From: Hormiphora californensis
Lineage: Eukaryota; Animalia; Ctenophora
Length of the DNA: 64,000 nt
Assembly: GCA_020137815.1 (NCBI GenBank)
Contig: CM035351.1
Location: forward strand, 5,456,001-5,520,000
Reading direction: 5' to 3'
Shown piece after piece: positions 617 through 62,545 of this stretch. Position 1 is the first letter of the stretch. Every line of letters begins with the position of its first letter. Both the position numbers and the translations under genes were made by a program. The notes below the pieces were generated by a model, which was given only the letters and a program-made list of their open reading frames with translations, was not told the origin of the DNA and made no database searches.

Positions 617-702
617 CTGTCTGGCGCCGCACTCATGTTTGATCATGGCGTCACACTGTTTGATTTGAGAATCAGATGGCCGGGTTTGGCGCCGCCAGAC
701 AG
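617..702. mobile_element. micro-MITE of the CTGTC..GACAG family (older copy)
   Basis: Starts ctgtctggcgccgc and ends ggcgccgccagacag, the same termini as the copies at 50941-52510. Flanks aatatttt/tatatttg are a degenerate 8-bp duplication. Confidence 0.65.
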
Positions 703-7167: not shown

Positions 7168-7251
7168 CTGCCAGAGCATTGGCCTGACCCATTATCGTTT
7201 CTCTCAAACGCGGAGCGCGCGAGAACTGTGGTCAGAGCATTGGCCTGACAG
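7168..7251. mobile_element. 84-bp micro-MITE (CAGAGCATTGGCCTGA subfamily) with 8-bp TSD
   Basis: agtatcct|ctgcc...gacag|agtatcct. An inverted sister copy at 51501-51567 has its own 8-bp TSD gttaaaac. Confidence 0.85.
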
Positions 7252-22810: not shown

Positions 22811-22889
<79 letters not shown>

Positions 22890-22892
22890 CTC

Positions 22893-22943
<51 letters not shown>

Positions 22944-29822: not shown

Positions 29823-35937
<6,115 letters not shown>

Positions 35938-38177: not shown

Positions 38178-41100
38178 ATGAGTAAACGTCCGATAACAGA
38201 CCTCCAATCGGACGATGATTCAGATGTCGATCTTGATGAGGAATTCAGTGAGGATGAATTAGATGAAGTCCAACCAAAGAAATCAGCACCGAAAAAGTAA
38301 GATCTTTATAGTACATAACTCCCTCCCGCGCGGGCAGTTAATCAATAGACGCACTGCAGAGTCCCGAAGGGACCCGTGCGTTACAGCACTGTAAATCCCG
38401 AGCGTCAGCGAGGGGTTTACAGGTATATCTGCACGCTAGGGAGGGAGTTATGTTCTATAGACCCCGCTGGCGGGCACCTAGAAGCAAAACAAGCACAATT
38501 TACGTGGTTCTCAAACATAGAGCTCACACAAAACGGGTCAAACAGTTGGAAATGAAGCCACAGATTGCCTCTCTACATTCTTACACACTCGTAGCAATCG
38601 TTTTAACAATTCAAAAGGGTGGAATGCATAGAGAGATAACAGTTAATTGTGGGTCAAGAGGAACAGTTGCCAACAGACTGGCGGGCGCCAAATCTAGACC
38701 GAGAACGTTGTAGGTTGTACACACACTCCCTCTTGTGTTGCCACGTCATTTTATCGTGTTTCCAGTGATTCTTTGTGATCTTTACACAAATCTGTCAGAG
38801 GGCGTGCGTCTATCGAGATACAAACTCACGGCAGTGCACGGCCCAATAGACCAGTGCAAATTGTTCAAGCGCGCCGTGCGTCTATTTTAGCCAGCGGGGT
38901 CTATATACATTTGTTTCATTAATGCACCGGTTTATTGTCCCTTCCCCATTCGACCCATTATATGACCCCTTTCTCCCCTAGATCAAAATTCCTGCGGATC
39001 ACAGACTTCATCCAGGACGAGGCTGAGGTGGATGATGATGCGGATGACCTTGAGGAAGATGATGACTTGGAGGAAGGGTACAGTGAGCTGGTGAAGGAAG
39101 GTGCCGAGGAGCCGGAGGATGGGGAAGATGCTTACAGTAGTCGAATGAGGCTGCAACATATCATGGACATCGAGGAAGAGGACAAGATTGAGCAGTATTA
39201 CAGGTAGGAGTTGTTTGTTAGTTAATTTCTGTTTTGTTCATCTTTTTTCTGTTTTGTCCCTGTTTTGTTCCTGTTTAACTCCTGTTTGTATGGTTTCCTT
39301 GTGATAAATCTACGAATTGTTTAGGAACAAGTACGCCGAAGTTGACGACCAGGATGTTATTGACACCAGTGGGTATGCTAAGAACGAGGAAGTAAAACAA
39401 CAAAGTGCACTACCGGGTGTCAAGGATCCCCGGCTGTGGCAGGTTAAGTGTCGGATAGGAGAGGAAAAGGCAACCGCCATCAAACTCATGCGGAAGTTTA
39501 TAAATTTGGAGGCAAATAATGATCCACTTCAAATCAAATCAGTTGTTGTTCCTGTTGGTGTGAAGGGGTGTATTTACATTGAGGCGTACAAGCAGACCCA
39601 TGTAAAAGCAACCCTGGCGGGAGTGAACGCTCTGGGAATGGGGAAGTGGCAGCAGCCTATGGTACCCATTAATGAAATGCCTGATGTCCTCAAGGTGAGT
39701 CGACTATCTTTTTACTCGTCTCTAGTTGTTCTACATGTTCGAACGTGTTCTAATATTCGCTTGTTTATTTTTCACTGAAACCATGTCTCTCTCTCACAAT
39801 TAGGTGGTTAGCGAACCGTTGGCGATAAAGCAGAATTCTTGGGTCCGGATCAAACGGGGAATCTACCGGGATGATTTAGCACAGATTGACTACGTTGAGA
39901 ATAACCAAAACAAGGCTCTCTGTAAGCTAATCCCCCGGATAGATTACAAGAAGGTGAAAGCTGTCTACAAGGATGGAGAAACCGTTAATAACTTCCGGAG
40001 GTCTGCCAAGGGACGGCCGTCACAGCGAATTTTCAAAGCTGATGAGATCAGAGGTCTGGGAGGAGAGTTGAAGAAAGATGGAGATTTTATCATTTTTGAG
40101 AGTAACCGATACCGTAATGGCTTCCTCTACAAGACCCTATCCTTTTCCGGTATTTCCATTGATGGCCAGAAACCCACGGTTGAGGAACTGAAAATGTTTG
40201 ACGAGCAACCAGACAACGTTGACCCGGAGAATCTCCCCTCGGAAAAGAAGCTAACCACAGATGCAGTGTTTTCAGCGGGGGATGTGGTAGAGGTGTCAGA
40301 GGGAGAGTTGATTCACATGACGGGTACAATTATCAGCATAGCAGGAGATAAAGTTACCATTGTGCCAAACCACGCTGATCTGGCTAACGCTGGAGCACTG
40401 GAATTTCCAGCCAAGGAACTCCGGAAGATTTTCAAAGAGGGTGACCACGTGAAAGTGATCAATGGAAGTTTGGAGGGCGAGACGGGTGTTGTTGTGCGGG
40501 TAGATGACAATATTGCGGTGTTAGTCGCTGATAAAACCCTTGAGGAGTTCAAGGTTCGACCCCGGGACCTCCAGCTATGTACGGAAATGAACTCCGGTGT
40601 GGACAGCCATGGGATGTACCAGATTGGTGATGTGATCGAGATAAACCAGAGTACTGTCGGGTATATCGTTAGGATAGAGCGGGAATCGGTCAAGGTTCTC
40701 ACTCAGTACGGGAAAACTGAGTCAGTGAATAACAGGGCCATTATGAGGAAACTTCGGTGTGGCCAGGCCTTGGATTCACAGCAAAACTTCCTGAAGCACA
40801 AAGACATTGTTGATGTGAATGATGATAAGAAGAGAAGGGGAGAGATCAAGTTTATCTGGCGTCATTTCTTGTTTTTGTTTAACCGGGGTTTAGCGGAAAA
40901 TGGTGGAATTTTCGTTGCTAAATCACGCGGTGTAACGTTACCAGGTGCAAATAAGTCCACTGGTAGTTTTGTTGCGGCCTCCCCCCGTCTCCAGTCACCC
41001 TCTCGGAGTCCAATGCGGGCTGGGGGTGATGGTGGTGCGTCACCCAGGCATAGCCGAGGAGGGGGCAGAGGGGGCAAGAGCCAACGAGACAGAGAGTTCA

Positions 41101-42179
41101 TTGGCAAGACGGTCAAGGTTAAAACTGGTCCATACAAGGGTTATGTGGGTATCGTCCGGGATTCAACGGACACCACTGCCAGGATTGAGCTTCACACGGA
41201 CTGCAAAATCATTTCCGTCGAGCGGGGTCATCTTGCGGAGGTGACGACTCTGGCAAGTGGAGGTCACATCACTCCCTCCACTCCCTTCATCAACAAAACC
41301 CCCGCCTACACGAACAACCTGGGTGGAGCTACCCCAGTTTACGGGGCTCAGGGTTCACGGACACCCATGCAAAGTGGAAACAGGACACCCATGTATGGAT
41401 CTCAGACACCGTCCAGGGGAGATCGGACACCCTACTATGGCGCCCAGACACCCACCCATGACGGCAATGCGACCCCTCGGGCGGGATATAGTGCTTGGGA
41501 TCCCAACTGTCCGAACACTCCTGCCCGATCATCATCTGATGATTTTAATGATTTCTACGAGAACTCACCCTCACCTGCTCCCTTCAGCCCAGCGAACCCC
41601 CAGACACCGGGTTACGGTGAACCAATGACGCCAGGGTATGCCATAGACAGCATGGGTCCAGCCACCCCGGGCACTGATTACAATACCAGTAGTGCCCCGA
41701 GCCCGGCTTCTCCCTACACAGAACCCTCACCCTCACCGGGCGAGTCCAGTTTAGGACCCCCGTCCCCCGGATCAGACAGCTCCGTACCCACACCCTACAG
41801 TAACCTGGCAAGTCCAATGACCCCAGCATCAACACAAGAAAACTGGCCTCTCAGTGGCATTGAAGTTGTCATGTTAGAGAGTTTCGAGGATGGCCAATAT
41901 ATCGGCCAAACGGGATACATCAGGGCTGTGTCCGGGCCCATTTCAACTGTCTGGTTGTATGAAGAAGAACGGGAGTTTGAGTGCCAGAGTTATCAGATGA
42001 AACCTGTTGTGCCGAAGAAACAGGACAAGGTTGTGATAATAACCGGAAACAGGAGGGGTAACCACGGGCAGCTAATTAACATTGACAATGACGATGGTAT
42101 CGTGAAGGCAGACAAGTCCCTGGAGTTGAGGATTCTAAAACTGGATTCCCTCGCAAAGTTATCCGCTCACCACATGTAG
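38178..42179 (+). CDS. SUPT5H: transcription elongation factor SPT5
   Basis: Exons at about 38178-38296, 38982-39203, 39325-39694 and 39804-42179. Acidic N-terminus, LPGVKDPRLWQVKCRIGEEK NGN domain, multiple KOW motifs, GSRTPM/TPMYGSQTP CTR repeats and a C-terminal KOW. Confidence 0.99.
38313..38905. mobile_element. non-autonomous multi-hairpin element (Crypton-like, tentative) in SPT5 intron 1
   Basis: Branched palindrome 38313-38453 (inner gtcccgaagggac and ctgtaaatccc..gggtttacag). Inverted repeat tatagaccccgctggc 38456-38471 pairs with 38890-38905. Confidence 0.6.
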
Positions 42180-42463
42180 AGAGAGGGTATGTGCATTGGG
42201 GAGAGGGGATAGTTTGAACTTGGTAAAGATTGAAGTATGATGGTTGAGTGGTTTGTGGGTGAAAGGTGCTTTATTCATTTTTCAGTGTGACAATATTGCA
42301 ATATCAATATGTCACTGTATCATTGATTAATATTATTCAACACGTTTGACTCTTATTTAAATTGATCGTTTTAATCTACCTCTACATTATGGAGTCCATG
42401 AGTCTCTCCCATTTAACATAACACAAAGAAGTAAACCTTCCCATCTCTCTCCTCCTAGCTAGC

Positions 42464-42823
42464 ATGTCTATGGCATCAGACCCCCGGTCCGGTTCGCCGG
42501 CCTCCTCTCCCCTCTTCTCTCCCCCTGCCTCCCCAGCTGGCATGTCTCCAGCGGGTGGTCCAGGCTCCCCCGGTGGCATTGGATCCCCTCCCAACAGGAT
42601 CTCTCCCTCTGGCCTGAGCCCATCCATGCACGACCAGAACCTGCAAGCAGCTGCTGCCACTGCAGTAGGGTCCACTGTCAAGAAAGCCATGATTTATGTT
42701 TGTGGGGAGTGCCGTGGTGACAACGAGATCAAATCACGTGACCCGATCAGATGTCGGGAGTGTGGCCATCGGATTATGTACAAGAAGAGAACTAACAGAA
42801 TGATGGTCTTCAACGCACGATGA
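42464..42823 (+). CDS. POLR2K: RNA polymerase I/II/III shared subunit RPB12 with a long Ser-Pro-rich N-terminal extension
   Basis: C-terminal [44 protein letters not shown] is the RPB12 zinc ribbon. Intronless 119-aa ORF directly after an acceptor-like ctcctcctag. Confidence 0.97.
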
Positions 42824-42984
42824 GTTACAAGAAACACTACAGATAGAACTGTTTTAATATTTTTGCAAAATTAACACTTATTTATGTCTTTCAAAAGTCG
42901 TACCAGTTCATTTTAACAAGCGTAGTTTAATGTCTAAACTCTCAAAAGTATGCACAACTAAATCCTATACCTTCTCTCCAAGTT

Positions 42985-44930
42985 ATGCTACAGGCTGTAA
43001 GGGTTCAGCGGGCCCTTTCAGGGGTGCAGCTGTTGAAGCGATTCCGTCACCCCGATACAAAACCTAGTGATCAAACTGTAGAGATTCAACCTCAACAGGA
43101 GCTCATCTCTCGAGAATTGTTACGGCCAATTAAATCAATCCGGAATGTTACTTTAGGTAAGATGGAATTGGTCTCACTAGAAACCGTTTTATATACCCTG
43201 CTAACTTAAATAATGCGCCAGTCCCACTAGCGCGCTCTCAATATACAGCCAGTCCAGCGGCAGATTATTTCCCACTGGCAGGTTATTTATTTTTAACTCC
43301 TATGTAACATTCAAAGTGTGTGTAAATGATCAGTTCTTAAACTGATCATTTAAAATACAGAGGGAACACTATGTGTAACACTTACACACTACATTGGAGA
43401 GAAAGAAAGGACACATTCCGTCAATTACTCTCTCTTTATCTCCCCTTTTGTCTCACTATCTCTTCCTCTGTGTTATGTGTGACATGCCCCTTATCAGGCT
43501 ATTTCTTTCACTCTCTCTCCTTAGCAACTGCTTAGTAACTGTTACCAAACAGTGTACACTCAATTGTGAGGTGTTTTTAACTATTTCTCAGTCCTCTTTG
43601 TGTGTTTTGATTAGTGTTCTCTCTCCTGTTAGTGTGTAATACTTGAAACAAACAACTAAAGCAGGGTATATAACCTATAAACTCTGACCACTGGCACGTT
43701 ATTGGTTTAAACCCCTCCGCCTCTCCCTCGGCTCCGCCTCGGGATCGTCGTCGTGATTTAAACCAGTTTATCCGCCAGCGGCGGATAAACTCCAGCTAAC
43801 TTCTCCCAGCGGCGCGCTGGGAGAAAGTTATCTGAAATAACGCGCCAGTGGCCAGAGTTTATACCTCATAAATACTTCTTGGTATCTAAGAAATCAGAAA
43901 GACTAATACATTATTTTCCGTGGACAGTGCACGACCAGCCGTTAGATGGATGGACTATGAAACAGCCCACCAGACCTAACATCCTCAGACCACGGTGGCC
44001 AGAGCAGTTCATTATGGAGCCTGTCTTTCAGGGCCGCTATGCAATTGTTGCTTTGGAAACATCCTCTCTGGGCTTCAAAAACATGAAGGTACATACACAC
44101 TAATAAATTACCTAGCTCGAGTCTTTATGGGACTAGGGAGTGTTTGAGAAATGAGAGTCCCCTACTCCCCTTATAATGAATTACTATTTTCAGGCCAGTA
44201 AAGAGTTTGTGAACAAATGGCTCACTCGAGGTATCCATGGGTTATGGGTCAGGTACTACCCCGACTACCCTAGATCTATCCGATTACCGGGCATGCCCAA
44301 GAACGGTGGCGGAAAGGGAAAAGTGAAGCAGTGGCACGATTACGTTCATGCAGGTTAGTTTTTATTATAATTTTAAAACAGGAATCTGAATCGTTTTTGT
44401 TATTTGTAAAGTGGGGAGGAAAACGTTTGTATTACTGTGTAAGTCAAGGATTTTTACCCGATACTATTTTCAGGGCGAGTTTTGATTGAGTTCGACTCAG
44501 ATCCTTTGACATCAAAGATAATATTTGACGGAGTGTTCAAGAGGGCAAAGTTGGCTGTAATGTTAGTCGATGGAAATAAACATCGCCAGCCTGGATTGGT
44601 AAGTATAACGGATTTTTGTAACGAATCAGTCAAATTCCAATTCCAACTACATATTTTAAGGTTTACCCGCCGGTCCTTATATCCATCGGTTTTTCACAGG
44701 TGACAGATATTGGAGGACGCGATAGGCTCGGACACAAAGTATACGACTACAAGATTGAACGAGCATGTGGATCAACCTACGTTTTCAGGCTACCAAAAGA
44801 CATGTACAAAGACAATGAGGGTACACGCTGTACAATGGAGACCATGCAATTAAACTATTCTCATAACAAGCACCATAGCTTTGGCAATGATCGTCTTCGT
44901 GTTAGAACGGGGACTGCTCACGGATGCTGA
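42985..44930 (+). CDS. MRPL16: mitochondrial ribosomal protein uL16m
   Basis: Exons at about 42985-43156, 43928-44088, 44194-44353, 44474-44598 and 44700-44930. Arg-rich presequence, then GRYAIVALE, LWVRYYPDYP, GGGKGKVKQW..VHAGRVLIEF. Confidence 0.88.
43189..43863. mobile_element. non-autonomous multi-hairpin element (Crypton-like, tentative) in MRPL16 intron 1
   Basis: Inverted repeat ttatataccctgct 43189-43202 pairs with agcagggtatataa 43660-43673. Branched palindrome 43676-43863 is an inverted, diverged homolog of 13451-13649. Confidence 0.65.
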
Positions 44931-45492
44931 GTATTTCTCACTTTAATAACGAAGTCCTGTTGTGTAAGTTATTGATCTAAAGTTCTGTCCATTCTCCAAA
45001 TCGGCGCCTCTTTTTGTCTCAAGTTTTGAACTGTGATCCCCGAACGATCTCCTTGTAAAGAAAGCACATCCGCGCGCACCACGCGCGTTCACATTCGTGT
45101 CATTGTCAGAAATGATGCGACGCGCAAATAACTCCAATTTACTCCGCAAACAACTTCATTTTCAGGATGAAAGCTCAGATAACCATAGAGACGGAGCAAC
45201 TTCATTTCTCTGCAGTTCATCCTCCGCAGCTGAAGAGTTTGGTATTTCTCATTTGTTACACTTGTGTTCCCCTTGTTGAGTGAAGCTAAGTAGTAAATGC
45301 ATTTGCAATTCAATCTCTTTTGATTACTTAGCGAGTACATAACAGCATTTTATATCCACCTTACAGTCACACCTTAGCAGTTCATGTCTTGCGGGGCTTG
45401 TAGCACTGTATCAACTATCATGTATGCCAATTCCACTTTCGATTTAACTCAACCGTTATATATCATTTCCCTATTTTCTAGGTTAAGCGGTT

Positions 45493-48400
45493 ATGACAAG
45501 TCAGGCGATGAAATACACCATTCCTTCCACCAAATATACCCCTGAGCATACCCGGTATGGTATGCCTCAGACTGGTGTCACTCTCCCTGCTACTCGTTAT
45601 ACCATCCACGAGTGGACTGGCTCCAATGCGAACCAGTACCTGACGTCAAGTACCGAGCGAACCTCTTCACTAAATCTGCGACTTGAATCTGAGCGACTCC
45701 GATGTGAAACCGCCGACCGAACACGACGAACCCAGAATGACATCAACTCCAAACTCCAGGACCGGATCGAGAACATCACCTACTGGAAGACTGAGGTTGA
45801 CCGACAGCTCCAGAAGACCGACCAGGAAATTGCCAACTTAATGGCGTCCAAGAAACAGCTCGAGCAGGCTCATGTGGCCACTCAGCTGCCTTTCGAGGTT
45901 GCCACAACCTGTCTGAAGCACCGAGAGGGCCGTCTTTCCATTGATCTTGTACACGATGATGTTGAGGTGCAACTGCTGAAGGTGAGTTGGGATAATCGGG
46001 GCAAATTGGGCAGAAAACATTTTGTGTCGAAATATCTGAATTGCTTGCTTGTGACATGCTTCTCTCTCACTGAGAGTCTCAGGGACACTCAAACTTAATA
46101 CATAACATTAGCTGATATTCAACATCATTTGAGATATTCACAAATCGATAATTGCATCTTGTGAAATATGTCCTTCAATGTGTGATTCATCCGTAGTGGT
46201 TTCAAGCCAGTACACCTTTTTAATCAATATACAGAGACCACAAAAGATGGTTCGCTTTTATTTCTCTCGCTCTTTTTCACAACCAATCCTTTTTCTCCTT
46301 GGCATTCCCCAAGCATTTCATGCTCTTTCCTCCTCACAAAAATGCCTGCACTATCTCTCCCAATCACTTTCTCTCCCTCTCTATCTCCCCCCTCTCTCCC
46401 TCCTTCTCACTTTGTGTGGTAAAGGTGTCTATCTAAATGTGTGCATATATTTGCCACCTTGGTCAGTGTGTGGATGTGCTGCAGTATGATTGTCCGTCAG
46501 TTGGTCTGTGCGTGCGTTGGTCTCACATGTGAAACTCAATTGCTCTAATAAGTAATGAATTGATGTACATGTGATCGCATTTTGTCTCTCCCCTTCACAA
46601 CTCTCTCCCCCCGCAGGAAGTTGAGATGATAGAGAACGTGCAGGCTCTTCTCCAGCAGCGCATTCACGAGAGTGATAGGCAGCTCAGGTTTGTTCTTGTA
46701 TAAAGTGTGGGAGTCTTGATATAGAGGGATATTGATGGAAAAAAAGAAGATGCTGGGAATAGATGAATAAACGGTGTCTCAAAGAGACATATTATAATAT
46801 GCACGATACATGACATAGATCATAGAGCTTACTAAGCTCAGCTTGAATCGGTAATGTGTTCTATCTGTTCTCTATAACTGACCCAACCTAGTTATTATAA
46901 GTGGAGTAATAAGTTAAGAAAAAACGAGAGAAGAGAGAGTAGAGATGAAGGAAATAGACCGCCAGTGCCATTATCATTGTAAATCATGATCGGCCGAAAG
47001 AGAGAATTAGGAAAGATACTGCCGGCGAGAGACTTCCTAGAACGAGATGGAGAAAGAGAGAGAGAGATAGAGAGAGATAGAGAGCGCAAAAAAAGAAAGC
47101 TATAACTGATTAGAGGTAGAGAAGGGATAGACAGAGAGACAGAGCATGAGTGCTAAAGTGTAGCTGTTTATAGGCGGAAGCTTAGCTGCGCTAATAGTTA
47201 GCATCAGTGATCTGTCTATTATTGTCCTAAGTAACCATGGAAACTCGAATCTACCTCTCCCTTCCTAATCTGGTATTTCAATCTGCGGTATCTTGTTTCC
47301 CTTCATCATTCTTTCCATCTCCCTCTCTCCATCACTACTTCTGTAGCAGTACAGTAATTAAGACTTTACAAAGTTACAACCTATTTCAGTGAGCTAAGGC
47401 ACTGTAAGAGCAATCTTGAGGCTGATCTGAAGGACAAATGCTCCTCCTACGGACTGGATTCCCGGTGTGCTGGGCTCCATAATGGCTCTCTTGGCATGAC
47501 CATCCACAATAATGCCGTCAAGATTGACCCCAAGTAAGCACCTTATATGCATGAAATATTAGCTACATAAATATCTAGTTAGCACTTATCTCCCCTCCCC
47601 CGGCCCCTCTCTATTCGACTTCTTTTAACCAGGTCTGCCACTCCTGCTTCCTATGAAGCGTTCTCTCACGACAACATCACCAATGCCGAGAAGCAGCGGG
47701 TCTCTTCATGCCGACAGAGGGAACTGAACGAGCACACCATGCACCAGACCTCCAACGATCTCCACAAACAGGCTGAGACCGTCAATGAGTCCTTCAGGAT
47801 TAGGATCCAGGAGATGATCACTGCCAAGACCAACCTCGAGGAAAATCTTAACCAGGTATAATATACTTTTGTAGTTTTTGACCTCTCTTTCTTTCTGTGT
47901 AACTGATCGATGTGCACAGTGTGCACAAGCAATAAGAGCCACCCACTCCAGTTGGCGTTGAATCGTTGAACTTTTTAAACTGATGATAACTGCTCCACCT
48001 GCTGCACAGTTGCCTGATGTATAACGGATTCAGAAACTTTCTAAGCTTGCGAGAATCAAGTGTGTTAAAATTCGGTTTCCAAACAAAGACTTGTGTGCAC
48101 GTTTAGTTTTTACACAACTCCCTCTCTCTCCCTCCAACTAACTGTGCAGCCGCAGAATGCATTATGTAGTCATTAGAATTAGAAATCGCTCGTGCATGAG
48201 TTTTTAAACCATCCTAGCTATCAATCCATCTCTCGGGGGCTTATCTTGCACGTAAACATGTGCATTCCTGAATGACTGTTACTTAGTAACTTCTAATTGT
48301 GATCTTTCTGTAGAGAGACCACAATTAGTTTTAAACAACGTTGCTTAGGTTTAGCACATGTTGACACACATAGGTTCAATAATGTATTGTGGGAGTAATG

Positions 48401-49943
48401 AATGGTCGTTCGGCAACCGGTTTAATAAACACACGATCCTAGCATGATGAAGAACAATGTAATATGAAGTAAACAACCTCTCTTGACGCATATTGTTCTG
48501 TCCCTCTAGCTCTATTGAATATTATCTCTATTATAATTTGGAGATGAACGTCGTGGTCGAAGTCGTTCGTTCAGTGCGTTTCTACGCGACAGACTGCTCC
48601 TTCATTAAGAATTTCAGTGGCGTGTTGTGACGAAATATTGGTGAACTGACGTAACTACGGCAGCCAAGAAGGAAATCGCGCGGCGCGCACAGCACACACA
48701 GAAGACATTAGAAACTTTCAATTCAACTTCCTACCCGCGCGTTCCAGACACGTCATTTTGGTCGAGGTGTCGTCATAATCATTCATGTTGCTATAGGGAC
48801 ACCTTCTATTTCTACAGTTCTTTCAGATCCCCTGCTATCAGATCACATCAACCCTATTAGTTAACCTCATTAGTACCCCTGTCAGTGTCACATTTCTCAT
48901 CAGCTCAGTGCTCACATGTCTTTGTGACATGTATTCCACACCCATTAAATTATGGCAGTGTCGAATGGAACTTTGATGGAAAAGTACGCTAAACAGCCGG
49001 CTTTCTTCTTGGGAGCAGATGTTTAAACTCTGCTGGCAGTTAGTGATTATTTCGGAACATAATTTAGCAATTCAGTCTCCATAGTTACCGATTTAGTTGC
49101 CATGGCAACCATCAAATGTGGGAAAAAAGAGGGCCACCCGTCGAAGCCGGGTGGTTTGTGAACACCCCTTATTTGAGGCGCACCCAATGGGTGCGCTAGT
49201 TTAGGCTAAAAGAAAGATTTTGGTGGCCATAGACCTAGATGGTGGCCGGATGAAATGACCCAATGCTATCATGACCTGAGAGCTGCACTCCGGAATCGAC
49301 ATGCCCCTGGTCACACTCCGCGTCTGGAGGGCGCGATACGATCTGTGGTGACGCGCGCACGCAGCTGCTGCGCGCAAAAACACAACCACGCTCCAACCTT
49401 TCCAGTTCCTCTGAAAGCGCTGACAAGCTCCAAACACAAAGTTACCACTCAATCCCTCTCTTTTCAGACCGTCCTGGAGATCAGTTCTATGAACGAGAAC
49501 ATTGCCGCCCTAAGGGAGGCCATCAGGCTGAAGGACTCTCCCATGCGTGTGTCCCACATGAGGCTCAACACAAGGTCCATGAGGCCCAACATTGAGCTGG
49601 TGAGGGATCCCGTCCAGTATGGACTTGTTGAGGAAGTTGGACAGATCACCGACTCTGTTGAGGCTCTTTCTGTAAGTTTTAGAATCTAGTATAATGTCTC
49701 AATCTAATGTGGTATTTTCAAATCTCTAACCACCTTTACTTGAAATATGCCTATTGTATACCACTCTCTCCTCCCCAGGCTAAGCTGAACGAGAGCATTG
49801 AAAGGCTGCGAAACCTCGAGAGGAACAAGAAGGCTTTGGAGGAGGATATTGCCGTGAAAACTAACTCCCTGAACATCGATCAGTCTCAGTGCCTCCGATT
49901 GAGGAAGACCCTAGTTTGGAGAAGGCACGAAATTAGCTTTTAG
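45493..49943 (+). CDS. tektin (Tektin-1/4/3/5 class)
   Basis: Exons 45493-45981, 46617-46687, 47390-47533, 47633-47855, 49468-49671 and 49779-49943. Motifs RIENITYWK, CLKHREGRLSIDLVHDDVEVQLLKE, RPNIELVRDPVQYGLVEEV and LEEDIAVKTNSLNIDQSQCL. Confidence 0.96.
47231..47244. promoter_or_regulatory. RFX X-box in tektin intron
   Basis: GTAACCATGGAAAC. Confidence 0.6.
49096..49109. promoter_or_regulatory. perfect palindromic RFX X-box in tektin intron
   Basis: GTTGCCATGGCAAC, with an adjacent X-box-like GTCTCCATAGTTAC at 49075-49088. Confidence 0.75.
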
Positions 49944-50237: not shown

Positions 50238-50426
50238 TGCTTGTAGTGGGAATACGGTGTCTGAATAATACGGTATTTGACCATTACGGTTTCTGAAATA
50301 CATATGTATTTGAAATACATATATATTTCGGTGTCACGTGTTGTCAATCCGGCGCTCTGATTGGTCTCGTCTTACCGTTTTTCACTGATACCGTGTTGAA
50401 CCGATACTGTATTCTCACTACAAGCA
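50238..50426. mobile_element. small MITE
   Basis: Inverted termini tgcttgtagtgggaatacggtgtc / gatactgtattctcactacaagca. Confidence 0.65.
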
Positions 50427-50940
50427 CCCTTGATACATCCTTCTCTCCAAGTAGTACCATGCTAACACTTAATTTTCTCTCCCTCAGTTATCGACCTGCG
50501 ACGATGTTCCTTGCCTCGTCTGTTAGTTCCCGGCACGAACCATTGATCTTTTAGAGCGAGGAAAACTATTTAGAATGGATTTTGAGACTAAGCGAGTGAA
50601 AACAATTTTGAGAGAACTGTGGATTTATGATGGATATTATGTAAATATGATTATTACACTGAGAGTAACACCCATGTATAAAGCACTCTTTAGGCGTAGA
50701 AACGTTTAGTTGAGAGATAATCTAGGACGGAGTTTTTTGTTTGAGTCATCTTTTTCTCAACTCCACTCATAATTCACATGTATTTATATGTCAAGTCACA
50801 TGTGTATAATAGGATATTTCGAATTTTCATCTTTTAAAATTTTCAAACAGTGGAATGTAAATAACCGTTAGTCAAGTAGATTTTATGAAGATTTGATGTT
50901 TGGTATTTGTCTAAAATAGTTGAAAATGAACCGATATAAA

Positions 50941-52510
50941 CTGTCTGGCGGCGCCGACTCGATCTGAGCGCTCTGAAGATCTGGCAACGCCAGGCAGGTT
51001 GTGAAGCAGATCAAGATCTGTCTGGAGGCGTCCCATCTGAACGCCACCAGACAGATCTGAGATCAAGGTCTAGACTGTATCATACAGTGTATGCTAGGCC
51101 CTGGCCGGTAGCCGTAGACCCGTCCTTAAATCTGTGACTGTTCTGTCTGGCGGCGCCATACCCCATTTTGACAGTACGCTCAGATTGGGTCAGCGCCACC
51201 AGACAGTGACTGCTCAAAATAGCAGTGTAGTGGTTCAATTTCAACTGTTTTTGTGTCATGCTATCGGAGCTGAGGATACTCGGATCGTGGCGGCCTTGAA
51301 GGGTTCCCAGTGTGTCTTACGCTGCCGCTTGTTATAGTGGCATTACCGTTATGGAATTACACTGTAATGGAAAACGGAGAAATGGTAAGAAGACGCCAAC
51401 CGTGGCAAGCGACCGGGTAAAGACTGGAAAGGGTGATTAGAAGGAACATTGGTCATCTGTGAAGGCCAGAATTGTCTGGCGGCGCCGATCCAGTTAAAAC
51501 CTGTCAGGCCAATGCTCTGACCACAGTTCTCGCGCGCTCCAATAGGGTCAGGCCAATGCTCTGACAGGTTAAAACGGGGTCTGGTGCAAGCCAGGCAGGC
51601 TCAGATCGGGTCGATAGACAGGCTGTATAATATTAGTAAAGACAACAAATAGAAACACGTTGGTTTACAAACAACGTGTTTCTATTTGTTCATGTTGTAC
51701 TATCTGCTCTCGGTTCCACGCCGATAGAGCTCTCTTGTGGCCTACAACCATATTGATATTAGTAAAGACCTAAGACGAACGTTGGTGGGTTGGCCGACGG
51801 CCGTTGCGGCTGGCTGCACTGAGCCCCTGGTACAGGTGAGGGTCGAGTCAGCAGAAGATTTGTGGTTACCCTGAAAGCGACTCAGACAGAAGTCAGACTG
51901 GGACACTATCTGGCGGCGTCTGTCAAATCGGAGTCTGGCGCACCAGACCCCGATTTGACCTGTCTGGCGCCGCGACCCATCTGAGAATCAAATTGGGGTC
52001 TGGCGCCGCCAGACAGGATTTGACAGTGACGTGGCGACATGAGCTCAGATAGGGTACCGGTACGCGGCGCCAGACAGCCGGGAATCTACTCAATTCAAAT
52101 CTGTCCGGGCGCCGACCCCGTTTTGATTCTTCCGCTCACCGCTGTCTCCAGACGTCTGGCGGCGCCTGTCTGGCGCCGCGACCCATCTGAGCACACTGTC
52201 GCGTGCTCAGATTAGGGTCTGGTGTCACAATATATCACGCAGCGCTGTCTGGCGCCGCGACCCATCTGAGCACACTGTCGCGTGCTCAGATTTGAGAATC
52301 AAATTGGGGTCTGGCGCCGCCAGACAGCGCAGCGCTGTCTGGCGCCGCGACCCATCTGAGCACACTGTCGCGTGCTCAGAGAATCAAATTGGGGTCTGGC
52401 GCCGCCAGACAGGGCGGCGCCGACCCGATCTGAGAATCAAAACGGGGTCTGGCGGCGCCAGAAAGTTTTTCCGAAAGTGCGATCAGATCGGGTGGGCGCC
52501 GCCAGACCGA
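50941..52510. mobile_element. nested cluster of CTGTC..GACAG micro-MITEs
   Basis: Copies with 8-bp TSDs: 51143-51206 (tgactgtt/tgactgct), 51501-51567 (gttaaaac), 51960-52016 (gatttgac) and composite 52166-52412 (ggcggcgc). Several more decayed copies are present. Confidence 0.88.
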
Positions 52511-53146
52511 CACAAATAAAAGTGTCTACCGTTTCACAATTCTAATTTGTACTTCCAGTCCTACGCACTCACACTCACAGCTAATCTGATTCACCGCCAC
52601 GTGTCCGACGTGCCAAATATAATTGGTACTGTCAATGTGCTATTTCAATATCCACCTTCCGAACAAGTTCAAAACAACAGTTTACTCAAAGGGAACTCAA
52701 CATTAACGAATAAAATTAACAATCAAAACAATTGTTTATAATTTATCTTCTGCTCAACAGAATCGATCAGCATTTTCAACCCCCCCCCCCCTTCGTATGT
52801 AATACCTCATACTCATACTAAGCTAGCTAGGCCTCACGCACTCGTCAAATTCAATGAAAAAGTAAAAGTAAAACTCTTGTACTAATTAAACTTATCCAAA
52901 GCTAAAAAGCTTAACGGGACGCTTTTCTTTGGTGTTCTTAAATGGAACAGTAAATATATTCTCTTTGGTGAGCTATAAGATTTCTAACAACCCAATCTTA
53001 AATAATGTCGGTCAGCTCACTGCCATGGATTGTCTTGTTGAGTAAGGGGTCCTCATCCCTTACTCAACATGGATTGTCTATATCAAACTGGTGATCAATA
53101 GTCTATGATAGTCTTTGGGGGAGAATGTAAATTGTTTTTCTCCTCG

Positions 53147-55790
53147 TTAAGCTTTCAGAGATTCCTCCAAGTTGATGGTTCCCCGGGACCTCCTCAACAA
53201 CATGGTCACAGTAAAGGCGATGGCAGTGAGAATGGGGATGATGGAGTAGTAGAGATAGGTGTCTCGGTATGACAGGCAATCAAGGAAGGTCCCTCCCATA
53301 ATTGAACCTGGAAGGGAAGGGAGGGTTAGTTACTGGTAGTAGTAGTAGTATCGCAAGTAGCAGTTCCGTTGCTTTGTTAGCTTGATATGATGATGGGTTA
53401 ATTTTTAGGGCACTGATAAACATTTGGCTTGGGTGCTTGAGAAAAAAACACAAATTAGTTGGCACTATCAGTGCCAGTGGGCCCCCGCATGTTGGATTTA
53501 GCTGGGAAGAAGCCAGGTTTCACTTTCTCTCTCACCCTTCTCAGTGAGAAAATTTCAGTATCCCTGATAAGGGCGGGCATCAAGGAAGTGCCTAACAGCG
53601 TTATCACGCCAGGGAGGGGGGGTGCCAGGTGAAATTGCATGTGCCTGGGAACTAACAACTTACCTACAAAGATTCCAAAGTAAAGGCAAGAATTTTGGAG
53701 GCCTGACAGTTGAGAGTTTAGAGATTTTTTGTTTCCATGGTGACGAGTTGCTTTGAGAAGGCATGGTAACCCAGCCACCTGAAAATAACGGGCGGTTTTT
53801 GGGTGAGAAAATGGGAGGATCATACAAAAATGAGTTCAAAACAAGGCAGTCTATAATAGCACACAACAATTCAACATACACTTACCCAGGGAATACTGCC
53901 GGCAAACCCAGTAATGGCAAGTCCCATTATGATTGAGAAGAGAGTGGGGTCAAAAGGTGGAATGGGGCCAAGGACACAATAACCAGCACTTCCCAATGCT
54001 AAACCAACCCCCAGTATTGAGTAGGGACCAATCGCATCGACCTGTGAAATAGGGGATATACATGTACCGACCCACAGAATATATGGGACACCCTGTATAT
54101 GTGTTGATATATTGATTCCTCATATATATGAGGAATCAAGTCTAAACTAATGCGGTAAATAGAAAAAACTGGGCCCTTACCAAGTAGCCAATTCCAATGG
54201 ATCCAACGGCAAAGAAAAAGTCTCTTAACAAAAACAGGCCTCCGATTGCTCCCTCTTTGAAGCCTGCATTTTCCAGGAATATACTCAGATTCGGTTCCTG
54301 GAAACCCAGAATTGATGACCCGACCATGGTCGTAAACAGGATGGAGAGAAGTTTGACATCCATCAGATTTTTTAGGGAGATGTGGTCTGCTAGCTGTACA
54401 TTGGGCACGAAGGGTATTTCCCGGGCTAGAGAGGCCCAATGGGATCCGTCCTTGCTGTCCGTGTAACCCACAATGGACTGCTCCAGACCGTCCTGAGGGT
54501 GGAGAGAGAGATTGGTTAAAATTGTGTTGCCACATTCAAATTGTCAACTACCCCGCTGGTATTGAATTAGGGAACCAAGTCACCGTCCGGAAAATCAGGT
54601 TAAATTCTTGTTCAAATGTGATGTGCATAAATTATCGCAAGATAACAAAACTTAGGGAGAATCAGAAAGCATGGGACAAAAAATAAGTTAGCTAGTGATA
54701 AAGGGCTGCAGTTTGCCAAGCTGGGAGATTACACAGAAGTTCGTCACGGTACTGACGTCACATTTCTCTCTCCTCTCTTACCCTCTCTCTCTCTCAACTC
54801 ACCTGTTCAACGTATGCGTACAGGCTGAATAATCGGCGTCTCTTGGGTGTTGACGGGGTGGTGGGTAGAACCAGGACCATTAGAACCCACATGACGAGGG
54901 TTAGACAACCCATCACGACGAAGGGCAGGAAGAATCCACCAATGGTGTAGAAGAACCCACCTAGTGGAGGACCAACCTGCGGGAAATTAGGGATGGTGAC
55001 GAACTTTTAAAACTTTTATAATGCACTCTGTACGGTACTAAATGAATGGAAAATTTCGGCCAGGTGTCTCACTTACCATAAATCCGACACCAACTGAAGT
55101 AGTGAGTATTCCGCTGACTTTTCCGACATTGTGACTGAACCTATCACTGACGATCGTGTACAGACTGGTATCCACAAATGCACAGCCACAACCCTTTAGA
55201 GGAATTAAGTTTCTCAAAATAGCCATTTGTGTTGGTGACGCAGTCACCCCTACACTAGCCGCGTGGTACTGATCAGAACACTTGAACAAAGACCAGCCTA
55301 GTAGTCACTAACCTGTATACAACGAAGTACAACCGAGACCAGAATGAACGCGATTTTGTTGGTGATGAGATTTAAAAATCCGAATAATATTGCTGATATT
55401 CCTGCTACGAGAATCCCCAACTTTAGTGTAAACTCGACGTTTAGTTTGCCAATTAGGATTGGTGTGACAGGGGCTACTACAAACACCGTTAGATGATACA
55501 TTCCAAGGATTAGCCCGATAACCGATTCTGAAACACCAAACTTGCATGCGTCACTGAAGGGTGGAAGGGATGAGAATAATAGTTTGTTAATAATAAGGGT
55601 TGAAAGGGATTTATGGAAATCAAAAATAGGTCTACCTGGGATAAAATGGAGATGCGAGGGAGGATACGGTGTTGACTACAAAGGCCGTTAAGCAGAGGCA
55701 AGTTAAAAGGAAGGCATTGCTTCGTCCTGACGATCTCTGATCAAGGTCCCGAAGTAGGGGGTCTGTCTCGAATTGCACTGCACCGGTCAT
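53147..55790 (-). CDS. MFS transporter, SLC18B1-like
   Basis: Multi-exon 12TM-type protein. Exon 1 MTGAVQFETDPLL..TAFVVNTVSSLASPFYP; then VVAPVTPILIGKL, LRCIQGCGCA, GVGFMVGPPLGGFFYTIGGFFLPFVVMG, GFQEPNLSIFL and GSIMGGTFLD; stop at 53147. Confidence 0.85.
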
Positions 55791-58031: not shown

Positions 58032-59064
58032 TATATTCGGACATATATTATGGAATGGGTGGGGGTAAAAACCAATTTGAGGAATGACCAAAGGAACGTG
58101 AGAGGGACCCTGGTAGGACGAAACTGGACCCGGAAATTGCTAATCGTACACAATTTCAAACAAAAGACTTCCTTAATTGTACTTTCATCTTGGTATGTGA
58201 CCAGTTAAAGTTTCCCCAAAAAAGCAGAATAAGACAGTGTTTACTAGGTACAGCAGTAACAAGCAAGTATCGTGACACATGTATGTGTTTTTGATAATGA
58301 TGTTAGACAAGTGGCTATGGCGGACGCGGCAGTCGTGTCGCCAATGAATTGTAAGCGTGCACTTTTCCGCATTGTGTGAGTGAGTGCATGTGTACTGGTG
58401 GCCAAGTTCAGGGTGGCACCTAGCAAGTTAACACATGTCAATAACACATGTACCTTGCAATGCATCGGTATCATAGCATCTTAATTAATTAGAGCATCAA
58501 TTGTTAGTCTCATATTGGTGATAACCCGGTATAAGCAGGGAACAGGACAAAAGAAAATGAATTGAAACATACCCAGCATGTGAAGTATAGTGAAGGTCCG
58601 TCCGAGATGTTCATGGTATTGCAGATATTGGGCCCACAATTGCAGTACTTGGCAGCTTCTTGATGAGGCACATTCGGGATCGCTAAATGAAAAATGAGAT
58701 ATTTAGGCATCTGAATCAAGGGGTGGGGTTTTTCTTGTTCAAACTGTTTCTTGCACACGTCTAGAGATGCATTTTGAACTCGCGACAGTACTCTCAAATC
58801 GGGTCGGTTCTGCCAGACAGTTTAAACAGAACAAGGGGGGGGGGTTCGGGCATGAGACACATCAAAACAGTTTTATAAACTTTTAGCTGCAAATCGAGTG
58901 TTACAAAAATAAAGGGTTTTAAAATCGATTCTGTAAAGATCGTGTCCACAGCAGCACAATTCATTTAGCACACAAAGTTTTTCCATAGGTATATATTATG
59001 TTGATTCAACTACTGCTAAATAGGGCATTCTCTTTGATTGTTATTGTACACTTGCTTTCTTCCT

Positions 59065-62000
59065 TTACATGTACATGTCAAGATTGTAGAACTCCGTTTG
59101 TCGCACAGACGGATCGTAGTAGTCGGTGATGGTGACCTGAGCTGCGGCGAGGTTGCTGACCTTGAACTCCTCGACGAGTGGCATGGAGACGGAGTACATA
59201 TCCGGGCTGATACCGGGCTTCACATACAAGTGAACCCTCTGTCCTCCCTCCTTGATATCAAATCGGCTAATGATGTCACTGGCTGAGATGGTTTCCGTGA
59301 CCAGGGCCTTTCTGAAGGTGAAACCAGTTGGTGCCTTCATCTCTAGTAGAACCATTGATGCAGACCTTTCCTTGTCCACCTTGAAGTCGGCAGATACCAT
59401 GAAGTAACTGGTGATGGGATCCCGTACTGCAGACAACTTCAGTCCAAACACCGCACTAGACTGGTTGGTGGCAGTTGATTGGTGGTAGGTTGATATCAGC
59501 TGGACAAATGAGGTTCCCATTCCAGTCCATTTGATCTTGTATTTTCCGGTACTGGCAGGGAGGTCCACCTCCTTTACAGACATATCCTCACCCTTAATCC
59601 GCAGCTTCTCGAAGTACGACCTGCCCTTTCCGATCAGAATGGTCATGTCCGTTTCAGCCATGGCGGGGGCGTTCTTGATGGCATATGTTGAGAGAGCCTG
59701 GAGGGCAACAACAGTATCCTGACTAGACCTGAAACCTCCTGTCTCAGACTTCTGAGATGCGAGCCAAAGGATCAGTGGAGTACTATCATCGAATTGATCG
59801 ATAGTCATGTAGTAAAGAGCAGCGTAAGCGGTCGCCTCGATGCTCTTGCTATCTCCAGGGGTACTGCAATCAGCGAACACATCATATCCGTCCCTGGTCT
59901 CAGTGACACATTGGTCCTCAATTTCACGGAAGTCTGCGAAACCTTGTTTGCGGCAGAGTGCCATTGCATAGGTGTTCATGTGAGCAGTACAGCAGTCCTT
60001 CAGGGGCGCTTCACGGATCAGCTTGTTGCACAGGAACTCCAACTTGTCACTCTCACCGTACGGTGATCCAAAGTCACATCGGGGAGAATCGTAGGACTCG
60101 AGGAGGGAGATAAGGAAGTATGCCAGCCAGTTAGATTCATCATTAAATTGGGAGGGTGCCCATCCTTGTCGTGCTCCTAAACTGGATACACTGTTGTAAG
60201 TGCTGATAAGGTTAGTCAGAGCCCTCCTGTCACCAGTCACCACATCGGTACAGGGAACGTGAACACTGGAGGGGAATTTAGCGTAGGTTCGGTAGACGAA
60301 GGCGGTCAGCCAGTGGCTTACCTCACTTCCCGAGAACACAGAGTAGCCATTGTACTGCCTGTAGGTCATCTGTCGTTGGAGACCCACATTCAGGTTGTGT
60401 TCGATGTTGTATTTCAGATATTCAGGAAGCTCAACCTCACTCTGTACGTTGTTTAGGTATTGGCTAGCAAACACGTTCACTGCAATTTTGTGCATGTTCT
60501 GTTCCCCGCATCCAGTTGGAAGTTGGATCAGGCTGGCGATACCAGTGGCAGCGTTGCCAAGGAGATCACTATAGGCAACCACCTTCAGGTCATGTGATCC
60601 GGGAATATAAGAGCTAGGCAGGTTTACAGACAGGACACGCTTTCTGGAGGTGATTTCTTCCTCAGTGATGAGAATGTTTTGAACATCAACGGTCCTCACG
60701 CCACCCGGCTGGACAAAGAGAGACCTCTCAATGGCATCACTGTCCCCAGCGGAGGAGGAAGCGGACACAGTTATGGGGTGTCGTCCTGCCTCGGTTAGAC
60801 TAACTGTATAGTTCACAGTAGAGAAAGAGTTACTCTTGATTTTGATGACTTTGCTGGTAGCTTCCCAGAGACTGCTGCTCACCCTGACCTCACATGTCAC
60901 ATCAGTTTCCCTGTAGTTGAACACGCTGATAGGGATTGTGATCCTCTCACCGACAATTCCAGAATACGGGAGGTCTAGCTTGATAAAGAAGTTTAGGAAG
61001 GTGATGAACTCGACATCATTTGAGAATCCCACTCCGTTCTCGGGGGAGAGACCAAAAGCACTTCCCTTCCACCCAGTGATGGTGTCAGGGGCAGTGACTG
61101 TCAGGATACTCTTTCCGTCACTATCAGTTGTAACGTCAGTCCACAGCCAGGACTCAGGGAAGAAGTTCCTCAGTCTGGGTTCCTCCGTATCATTTGACAT
61201 GTCACCTTCATCCGTCACTTCGTCAATGGCATCAGTGTAATAGCTATCATCTTCCTCCGCCATAGCCATCTCCATGTACTCTGTTCGGTAATAATCGCCA
61301 CCTCTTCCGGGTGATCCATACCTATAGTCGTAGTCATTCCTCCTCTTGACAGGTGGCTTGTAATCAAACAGGTTCATGTTGGTATCAATACCAACTCCCT
61401 CGCTGGACAGAAGATCCTTGACATCGATTATTTTCACCTCAGTGTTAGAAGTACACTGGTAGGGATCGTCCCGCTGGCATGACTGATCCTTCTCGCTGCC
61501 GGTATCCTGGCCTCGTAGGAAGGATAGGGTCTCCTCCTTGGTGAGAACCTTACAGGGAGCTCTCATCAGGTCCAGGGACTTGTCACTCATGGAAATACCC
61601 ACGAATGAGGTGGGGTCTCCCCTCAGGTAGGCGGTTATGTTTTCACCGGGTTGCCCCATCTCCTTGCTGAGCGAGAATGTCAGGGAATGAGGAAGGAACT
61701 CAGTTATACAGAGGTCCAAGCCATCAGCCATCAGATGTCCATTGCTCTCGTGGGCAGTCAGCACCAAAAGACGGGATCGTACATTCAGAGTATCGGGGAT
61801 GTCGAACTCTCCAGAGGTCTCGAAGAGCCCATTCGGCAGCTCCTTCCACTGAGGGTTATAGCTCGAGGAATCCACAATAACACCCTTGGACATGATTACC
61901 ATGAACAAGACATCCTGCGCCCGAGATGCTCGGATCACGTACTCGGCCCTATCCCCGGGATTATAAGTGACGGGTTGCTCCTTGTGGAACCTCACGAACA

Positions 62001-62545
62001 AGTCCTTGTGGGCTACCATCCTGTCCGGTTGGAAGCACGAGAACACCGCCTCACAGGCATCATCACTCTCCAGCTCGGCTGTAATCTTAACCGCACAGGC
62101 ATCTTCAGGGACCTCAAATGAGGCAAAAGCCTTACCGTCCTGGATGATCACCTCCTTTTTCTGGTAGGTCAGAGTCTCCAGACCGCTCACCATGGTTACT
62201 TGGACTGTGGAACCATCAACGGCAGCCTTTTGGGACAGCGCCTTGACATCCATTTCCACGTAGTATGGGAACCCAGTTGAGTAGTGACGTTGGGTGTTCT
62301 TGTTGAAGGTCAGGGAGACTGCAGTCTGACTAAACTCAACGAAAGCTGTGGCAGGTTCTTGTTCCTCCTGGGGGGAGTAACACGTTAGCTGTGGATAATA
62401 AAACTCCCCAATCCATTTAATGTTTAAAATCTTTGCAACAAGAACTTACTTCCTCGCCAACTCGGGCGGTGATGGTCAATGATGAGGGAGAGCACCAGGG
62501 GTTGAACAGGTACTTCGTCTTAGCCATTACCAAATCAAGATCAAA
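59065..62545 (-). CDS. thioester-containing protein (TEP/CD109/alpha-2-macroglobulin family), 5' part outside the window
   Basis: Exons 62450-62545 and 59065-62367 (about 3.3 kb). Motifs LRNFFPESWLW, PDTITGW, PTGCGEQNM (thioester), WLTAFV, GGFRSSQDTVVALQAL and the receptor-binding domain DYYDP. Confidence 0.97.

What the first reader, a model, noticed from the sequence alone, without database searches (positions are those of the whole stretch)
50941..52510. Family of extremely small (57-84 bp) self-nesting transposons with CTGTC..GACAG ends and 8-bp target duplications
Seen: gatttgac|57 bp|gatttgac (51960-52016); tgactgtt|64 bp|tgactgct (51143-51206); and ggcggcgc|247-bp composite|ggcggcgc (52166-52412), which contains further copies separated by cgcagcg. 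Several target sites lie inside older copies of the same family. Interiors are modular (gacccatctgag, cacactgtcgcgtgctcaga, gagaatcaaattggggtc). Established: 8-bp TSDs typify hAT, P, Merlin and Zisupton elements, but their usual termini are not CTGTC. Inference: a minimal-size non-autonomous family, possibly driven by an unclassified transposase with a preference for its own sequence.
Basis: partly seen in the sequence, partly recalled or inferred. Interest (0 to 1): 0.7.

Follow-up and report, generated by a model that had tools for sequence, protein, structure and literature searches.

The report
Ultra-short comb-jelly jumping DNA family
These are real, gene-less jumping DNA pieces only 57-86 bases long in a comb-jelly genome, one of which is cleanly absent from the same spot in another sample; they are likely moved by a borrowed cut-and-paste enzyme of the hAT or P type, although they are far shorter than the ends such enzymes are reported to need.

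Summary
The window is ctenophore DNA (SPT5 76% identical to Mnemiopsis). All three quoted target duplications are present. I found more copies, including a sister family with CTGTCAG ends (51501-51567 and 7168-7251, both 8/8). Seven of 12 paired elements have 7/8 or 8/8 flanking repeats, at length 8 only; 0 of 73,462 permutations reach that. A contig from another sample lacks exactly the 57-bp element plus one 8-mer. Dozens to over 100 different flanks end at the same termini in each of five runs of two related species. Their consensus suggests a palindromic target CW-STnnnnAS-WG, like hAT (Hermes, hobo) and P targets. No transposase was found, so the superfamily is open: hAT or P about 0.6. 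The 5'-CT ends fail Merlin's GG rule. Self-nesting is real in this cluster (3 of 6 window insertions lie inside older copies), but six copies sit in non-family DNA, and family DNA holds at most about twice as many good targets. Verdict: a new, unusually small MITE family, ordinary in kind but odd in size and termini.

The parts
51960..52016 (+). 57-bp element, CTGTCTGG family, 10-bp perfect terminal inverted repeat, 8/8 duplication GATTTGAC; inserted in an older copy; polymorphic
   Evidence: empty allele (run X5 record 13 joins 51951 to 52017)
51143..51206 (+). 64-bp element, CTGTCTGG family, 7/8 duplication, in non-family DNA
   Evidence: spanned (filled) by X6 record 17
52166..52412 (+). 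247-bp composite: left end of one copy, right end of another, 8/8 duplication GGCGGCGC; inserted in the terminal repeat of an older copy
52166..52237 (+). first unit of the composite: intact left end; right end decayed at CpG sites and cut short
52245..52327 (+). 83-bp inner element with a 7-bp repeat CGCAGCG on both sides; abuts the next copy's left end
52335..52412 (+). 78-bp inner element that supplies the composite's right end; no duplication of its own
51501..51567 (+). 67-bp element of the sister family (CTGTCAG ends), 8/8 duplication GTTAAAAC, inserted in an older CTGTCTGG copy
   Evidence: loose ends at 51501 and 51567 in 4 of 4 runs
51472..51597 (+). older decayed copy that hosts the 67-bp element
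51906..52077 (+). older copy (107 bp without the insert; flanks 5/8) that hosts the 57-bp element
52152..52465 (+). older copy of about 59 bp, split by the 247-bp composite
   Evidence: loose ends at 52413 and 52462
50941..51054 (+). two decayed copies (50941-50997 and a 37-bp hairpin 51018-51054), no target duplication
52476..52509 (+). decayed right end closing the cluster
617..702 (+). 86-bp dispersed element, CTGTCTGG family, 6/8 duplication, AT-rich non-family flanks
7168..7251 (+). 84-bp dispersed element of the CTGTCAG family, 8/8 duplication AGTATCCT, non-family flanks
58784..58820 (+). solitary decayed right end

Best explanation
These are gene-less DNA transposons (MITEs) of 57-86 bp with CTGTC...GACAG ends and 8-bp target duplications, repeated in two related ctenophore species and present or absent between samples, and likely moved by cut-and-paste by a transposase of the hAT or P type encoded elsewhere in the genome. 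Shown: the termini, the 8-bp duplication, one precise empty site, two sister families, nesting and one composite. Inferred: the enzyme binds the 10-15 bp ends and short subterminal modules, cuts the element out, and inserts it with an 8-base stagger at a loosely palindromic site (CW-STnnnnAS-WG); host repair makes the duplication. Inferred: the 247-bp unit moved when the enzyme paired the left end of one copy with the right end of a neighbour. Inferred: nesting comes mainly from short-range reinsertion or enzyme held on existing ends, in a tolerant stretch between genes, and only weakly from target resemblance. Odds: real non-autonomous cut-and-paste family 0.92; mover hAT about 0.4, P-like about 0.2, other or undescribed about 0.4.
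For: Duplication length and position. Empty site: X5 record 13 (119 letters left, 105 right, 65 skipped = element plus one 8-mer); X4 records 5 and 6 break at 51951 and 52017, as expected if that sample carries both alleles (inference). Interspersed repeat with exact ends: loose ends at 51501 (85, 79, 59, 145 contigs), 51567 (24, 36, 36, 35), L003:378 (103, 119, 87, 66) and L003:698 (71, 90, 104, 78), agreement 0.34-0.37. Independent locus L003, matched letter for letter by organism B runs X8 and X19, holds three more elements with 8/8, 7/8 and 5/8 repeats. Target consensus, counted by hand from table 7: C at -10 in 8 of 8 left rows (C is 9 of 160 letters further out), T at duplication position 2 in 7 of 8; A at position 7 in 9 of 9 right rows, C at position 8 in 9 of 9 (19 of 180 further out), G at +10 in 7 of 9 (12 of 180). 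Hermes prefers nTnnnnAn (PMC10368747); hobo GTNCGNAC/NTNNNNAN and P GTCCGGAC, both 8 bp (PMC3276498 Tables 3-4). No coding capacity.
Against: No autonomous element or transposase was found (no genome held). The ends are 5'-CT, whereas I recall YA for hAT and CA for P (not confirmed by any search). Characterised hAT elements need about 100-220 bp at each end and Anopheles P-MITEs are 205 bp or longer. In the nine individual sites I could read, T2/A7 alone is not enriched (6 of 18 positions, P=0.40); only the wider C..T..A..G pattern is (P=0.003). The consensus rows are not independent (two species, shared copies), A and T are the default majority letters, and four rows left out of the count differ: G at position 8 in three rows at 52462 and no C at -10 in the row at 52413. 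Only one empty site was seen; one search showed none at L003.
Confidence: 0.65

Rival explanations
1. The mover is an undescribed or unclassified DDE transposase with 5'-CT ends, possibly akin to the bacterial IS10/IS50/ISPepr1 subgroups of IS4, able to work on very short substrates.
For: PMC2266710 (passages) says IS10, IS50 and ISPepr1 preferentially show 5'-CT ends. No eukaryotic superfamily with CT ends and 8-bp duplications turned up in the passages read. Size is far below reported hAT and P requirements.
Against: A two-base terminal match is weak. No protein was found. None of the 68 other metagenome hits to the end pattern had a partner end with a duplication within the fetched DNA. The target consensus fits hAT/P. 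The list of eukaryote-prokaryote transposase links in PMC10045372 does not include IS4.
Confidence: 0.2
2. The elements are derivatives of another known 8-bp superfamily (Merlin, Mutator/MuDR, Zisupton, Novosib).
For: Merlin makes 8-9 bp duplications and has intact ORFs in ctenophore genomes (PMC8101967); FLYWCH genes of Mutator origin are expanded in ctenophores (PMC10027918).
Against: Merlin ends are 5'-GG in all families described there. The repeat length here is 8, not the 9 I recall as usual for Mutator. Zisupton and Novosib ends could not be checked.
Confidence: 0.1
3. The elements spread as single-strand hairpins by a replicative or template-switch route, without a DDE cut-and-paste step.
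For: All elements fold into hairpins as single-stranded DNA (-5.6 to -27.8 kcal/mol for the short ones), interiors are modular, and 57 bp is short for pairing both ends of one duplex.
Against: Fixed-length 8-bp duplications of unrelated sequences and a palindromic target are the marks of a staggered cut. Folding follows from the inverted ends and was not tested against shuffles.
Confidence: 0.04
4. The cluster is an assembly artefact or local slippage of a palindromic repeat.
For: The window holds low-complexity stretches and a 100-N gap; 52238-52420 scores as a 90-bp tandem of 2.1 copies; no listed contig bridges the whole composite or the filled 57-bp allele (table cut).
Against: Dispersed copies with their own duplications, an exact empty site and the same structure in a second species. 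Slippage might explain the 83/78-bp tandem only.
Confidence: 0.02

Closest known systems
MITEs in general (non-autonomous TIR elements of 50-800 nt; PMC4726161, passages)
   Same: Short, no coding capacity, terminal inverted repeats of about 10 bp or more, flanking duplication, many copies, between or inside genes
   Different: At the very bottom of the size range; GC-rich (52-65% for the short copies); repeated nesting and a composite in one 1.6-kb cluster
hAT elements and their MITEs (Hermes, hobo, Ac, Tol2, BuT2; PMC10368747, PMC3276498, PMC3942097, passages)
   Same: 8-bp duplication, short TIRs (10-25 bp), short subterminal repeats, palindromic target reaching beyond the duplication with T2/A7
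   Different: 5'-CT ends; whole element is shorter than one functional end of Hermes (about 220 bp), Tol2 (200+150), Ac (200) or Tag1 (about 100); BuT2 MITEs are 532-927 bp; no transposase linked
P elements, 1360 and Anopheles P-MITEs (PMC1562414, PMC3276498, passages)
   Same: 8-bp (P) or 7-bp (1360) duplication, GT....AC-type target, composite MITEs with ends from two sources
   Different: P TIRs are 27-32 bp and P-MITEs 205-2450 bp; ends here are CT with 7-10 bp of perfect repeat; no THAP transposase linked
Merlin (PMC8101967, passages)
   Same: 8-bp duplication; present in ctenophores
   Different: Merlin ends are 5'-GG with TIRs of about 23 bp or more
IS10 / IS50 (Tn5) / ISPepr1 subgroups of IS4 (PMC2266710, passages)
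   Same: 5'-CT ends; that the IS50 ends begin CTG(A/T)C and make 9-bp duplications is recalled, not from a call
   Different: Prokaryotic, autonomous; no such protein found here

Membership tests
MITE / non-autonomous TIR transposon | terminal inverted repeats | tested here: met
   10-bp perfect, 13 of 15 terminal bases in the CTGTCTGG family; 7-bp perfect, 11 of 15 in the sister family
MITE / non-autonomous TIR transposon | fixed-length target duplication | tested here: met
   7 of 12 elements at 7/8 or better, peak only at length 8
MITE / non-autonomous TIR transposon | many copies with different flanks | tested here: met
   24-145 contigs with unlike flanks per terminus and run; four separate places in the window
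MITE / non-autonomous TIR transposon | evidence of movement (empty site) | tested here: met
   one precise empty allele; none seen at L003
MITE / non-autonomous TIR transposon | 50-800 nt, no coding capacity | tested here: met
   57-86 and 247 bp; no transposase family among 143 window ORFs of 75 aa or more
hAT | 8-bp duplication | tested here: met
   rule from PMC3942097
hAT | nTnnnnAn target preference (Hermes, hobo) | tested here: inconclusive
   seen in loose-end consensus rows but not enriched in nine single sites; P targets share T2/A7
hAT | 5'-YA terminal bases (recalled rule) | tested here: not met
   ends are 5'-CT; shifting the boundary destroys the duplication; the rule itself comes from memory
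hAT | ends shared with an element encoding a hAT transposase | not testable with these tools
   no genome held; collection scans gave no long copy
P | 7-8 bp duplication with GT....AC-like target | tested here: inconclusive
   length fits, one 7-bp case; G at position 1 is weak (2 of 8 left rows) and positions 1 and 8 read as C or G
P | TIRs of about 27-32 bp, 5'-CA ends (ends recalled) | tested here: not met
   7-10 bp perfect TIR with CT ends
P | ends shared with a THAP transposase element | not testable with these tools
   as for hAT
Merlin | 5'-GG termini | tested here: not met
   one search rule; ends are CT
IS4 (IS10/IS50/ISPepr1) | 5'-CT termini | tested here: met
   one search rule; weak, two bases
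IS4 (IS10/IS50/ISPepr1) | DDE transposase with YREK motif | not testable with these tools
   no protein in hand
Zisupton / Novosib / MuDR | terminal consensus and transposase | not tested
   terminal consensus not found in the passages read; Repbase and Dfam not available

The most novel reading that the evidence does not exclude
The mover is an undescribed eukaryotic transposase lineage with 5'-CTGTC ends that cuts with an 8-base stagger and can mobilise elements of under 60 bp, several times shorter than the ends that studied hAT or P enzymes need, by pairing ends of neighbouring or sister copies; this would also build the nested and composite clusters.
Probability: 0.2. Interest if true: 0.7.

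Novelty: new member of a known kind. Interest (0 to 1): 0.42.

Why it matters
MITEs are common, so the class is not news. Two things are worth a specialist's time. First, a 57-bp element with an 8-bp duplication and a precise empty allele sets a very low size bound for enzymes that make long duplications; finding the mover would show how both ends are paired on so short a DNA and could yield a transposase with minimal end requirements. Second, these polymorphic GC- and CpG-rich inserts are abundant in ctenophore non-coding DNA, where high indel heterozygosity (PMC8527503) and a GC-rich two-CpG chromatin-loop motif near DNA transposon insertions (PMC12221973) have been reported; whether the element ends carry that motif is untested.

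Tried and rejected
Whole genome: none held, so no genome-wide duplication table or search for long copies. Collection scans: viral contigs 0 hits for both family patterns; prokaryote genomes 0 hits for the sister-family pattern; metagenomes 69 hits, of which 1 (L003) is a family member and 68 are single matches in GC-rich DNA without partner end or duplication. Pfam on 143 window ORFs (75 aa or more, low-complexity ORFs dropped): no transposase. Rfam on 50400-53200: one chance-level match, E 0.76. Second read-laying on L003: locus covered in organism B only, no empty site listed. Summed contig depth over the elements is thousands of times the flank depth, but the tool states that this is no copy number, so I did not use it as one. 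My idea that self-nesting follows from the target motif resembling the element's own ends was tested and is insufficient: top-scoring sites are 2.5% against 1.3% or 1.1% against 0.5% and mean scores are equal. A strict GT....AC target (my first reading, note) was relaxed to S at positions 1 and 8, because opposite-strand rows disagree. Shifted termini rejected. Earlier findings of the scan: nothing for this genome or sequence; the word search gave only bacterial and archaeal elements. Papers: searches listed no paper describing CTGTC-ended ctenophore elements (listings only). The Pleurobrachia genome paper (PMC4337882) and PMC3093488 are not held; Repbase and Dfam could not be consulted, so the family may already be catalogued. 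The loop-motif logo is in figures that are not held; two supplement PDFs of PMC12221973 had no text. PMC2817418 and PMC12595863 passages gave nothing usable ('nested' 0 hits in the latter). Runs with small word shares that I did not lay were not used.

Full report
Setting. The window is animal DNA: an SPT5 exon at 39804-42179 is 76% identical to a Mnemiopsis leidyi protein and at most 46% to named non-ctenophore proteins, so the host is a ctenophore other than Mnemiopsis. No whole genome is held. The cluster lies between the last tektin exon found (49695-49940, + strand) and an MFS-type transporter on the - strand (Pfam hits at 55041-55675), so probably between two gene ends (inference).

Observation. 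All quoted features are in the sequence: 57 bp with GATTTGAC on both sides, 64 bp with a 7/8 repeat, and a 247-bp unit with GGCGGCGC on both sides that holds 83- and 78-bp copies. The end 10-mer occurs 12 times against 0.06 expected. I found further members: a sister family with CTGTCAG ends at 51501-51567 and 7168-7251 (both 8/8), a copy at 617-702 (6/8) and a lone end at 58784-58820. On 12 paired elements delimited by hand, failures included, 7 have 7/8 or 8/8 repeats, 0 of 73,462 derangements reach 7, the signal peaks at length 8 only, and it vanishes when the ends are shifted by one or two bases. I left out of these 12 the inner 78-bp copy, unpaired or badly decayed ends, and one L003 copy with an unclear end.

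Movement. Of 22 runs listed I laid five. In one search, X5 record 13 runs from 51833 to 51951 and continues directly at 52017, with 119 and 105 letters on the two sides: exactly the 57-bp element plus one 8-mer is missing (65 bases). X4 contigs break at 51951 and 52017, which fits a sample carrying both alleles (inference). No listed contig shows the filled 57-bp allele or bridges the composite, but the table is cut. Loose ends pile up exactly at the termini, with 24-145 unlike flanks per terminus and run. One of 69 metagenome hits, L003, is a true relative; it matches organism B letter for letter and carries elements of 63, 81 and 68 bp with 8/8, 7/8 and 5/8 repeats. No empty site showed there. 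So both families exist in two related species.

Target site. From table 7, counted by hand: in 8 left-flank consensus rows, C stands at -10 in 8 (9 of 160 letters further out), A at -9 in 7, T at duplication position 2 in 7. In 9 right-flank rows, A stands at position 7 in 9, C at position 8 in 9 (19 of 180 further out), A/T at +9 in 9, G at +10 in 7 (12 of 180). Four rows whose loose part starts inside the terminus were left out: three show T2 and A7 but G at 8, one lacks C at -10. Rows that start one or two bases off the terminus were also left out. Left rows show G at position 1 in only 2 of 8, so positions 1 and 8 are best read as C or G. The result is a loose palindrome, CW-STnnnnAS-WG. 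The rows are not independent, and A and T are default majority letters. In nine single sites the C..T..A..G pattern is enriched (P=0.003) but T2/A7 alone is not (P=0.40). Hermes prefers nTnnnnAn (PMC10368747, passages); hobo and P give 8-bp duplications with GTNCGNAC and GTCCGGAC motifs that reach beyond the duplication (PMC3276498, passages with Tables 3-4). The signature therefore points to hAT or P without separating them.

Nesting. Removing inserts in silico restores three older family copies. Three of the 6 window insertions with an 8-bp repeat of 6/8 or better are inside older copies, while family DNA is 1,108 of 64,000 bases (binomial about 1e-4), with the caveat that the window was chosen for this cluster. 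The 83-bp copy abuts its neighbour's left end; its 7-bp repeat may be a true 7-bp duplication, or an 8-bp target that included the neighbour's first C with one C lost at the left junction (inference). The three nested insertions sit at the best-scoring targets (7, 6 and 5 of 8), but such targets are only about twice as dense in family DNA, so sequence resemblance alone does not explain the nesting. Six copies (three window, three L003) lie in non-family DNA. Joints between family pieces at other loci appear (tables 5, 5c) but cannot be quantified.

Mechanism. Best reading: trans-mobilised cut-and-paste MITEs. Shown are ends, duplication, polymorphism, dispersal, nesting and one composite. Inferred are the DDE enzyme, its hAT or P type, composite movement by ends of two copies, and nesting by local reinsertion or enzyme held on existing ends. 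The puzzle is size: Hermes needs about 220 bp at each end, Tol2 200 and 150, Ac 200, Tag1 about 100, and Anopheles P-MITEs are 205-2450 bp (PMC1562414, passages). A 57-bp duplex is stiff (general knowledge), so pairing of ends between neighbouring or sister copies is a live possibility and would also produce composites.

Comparison. The elements meet all MITE criteria (50-800 nt, TIR, duplication; PMC4726161, passages). They fail Merlin's 5'-GG rule (PMC8101967, passages). The YA and CA terminal rules for hAT and P are recalled and not met. 5'-CT ends are described for the bacterial IS10, IS50 and ISPepr1 subgroups (PMC2266710, passages), which is only a lead. Repbase classifies non-autonomous elements by matching ends to known families (PMC4455052, passages); I could not run that comparison. 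I therefore do not file the family under any superfamily. No transposase appeared in the window or in collection scans. Paper searches listed nothing on such ctenophore elements, but the Pleurobrachia genome paper and its supplements are not held and may describe them.

Side lead. PMC12221973 (section 9 read whole, other passages, supplement search) reports a GC-rich motif with two CpGs at ctenophore chromatin-loop anchors, and DNA transposon insertions in over 90% of looped promoters. The CTGTCTGG-family ends hold a GC-rich core with two CpGs, and older copies show CpG-type decay. The motif's letters are only in figures that are not held, so the link is untested (my odds about 0.1).

Verdict. 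Observation confirmed; interpretation partly supported. A real, apparently undescribed, very small MITE family with atypical ends: new member of a known kind, interest 0.42; 0.2 chance of an undescribed mover, which would merit about 0.7.

Noticed in passing
window 51630-51769: A 112-bp repeated insert beginning with a 47-bp hairpin lies between 14-bp direct repeats; a contig in X6 skips 51643-51773 and one in X4 is shorter there. Probably a second, unrelated polymorphic mobile element with a long duplication.
   Followed up: partly
window 50941-52510 and L003: The GC-rich two-CpG core of the element ends may resemble the ctenophore loop-anchor motif bound by CTEP1/2 (PMC12221973); the logo could not be seen.
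   Followed up: partly
L003:60-1040: The whole locus has high summed depth in both organism B runs and is absent from organism A runs except for the element parts; it may be part of a larger repeat.
   Followed up: no
window 51567 (table 5c): An X6 contig joins the right end of the sister family to a left end with 7 listed letters plus one matched base between, i.e. two copies 8 bases apart at another locus.
   Followed up: no
window 51060-51095 and L003:400-510: A short palindromic repeat (CTGTAT...ATACAG type) near the cluster resembles a longer palindrome beside the L003 element; possibly a further related family.
   Followed up: no
window 59065-62445: Single 1126-aa ORF of an alpha-2-macroglobulin / thioester protein on the - strand.
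   Followed up: no
window 62996-64000: Reverse transcriptase fragment on the - strand running off the window end.
   Followed up: no
window 31376-35695 and 38923-49940: FoxP-type exons, SPT5 with a 791-codon exon, a small RNA polymerase subunit gene and a tektin gene.
   Followed up: no
window 2375-2480: Short 15-bp tandem repeat with nearby inverted copies, probably another small repeat family.
   Followed up: no
window 17500-24300: Low-complexity, homopolymer-rich stretch ending at a 100-N gap, which looks like low-quality sequence.
   Followed up: no
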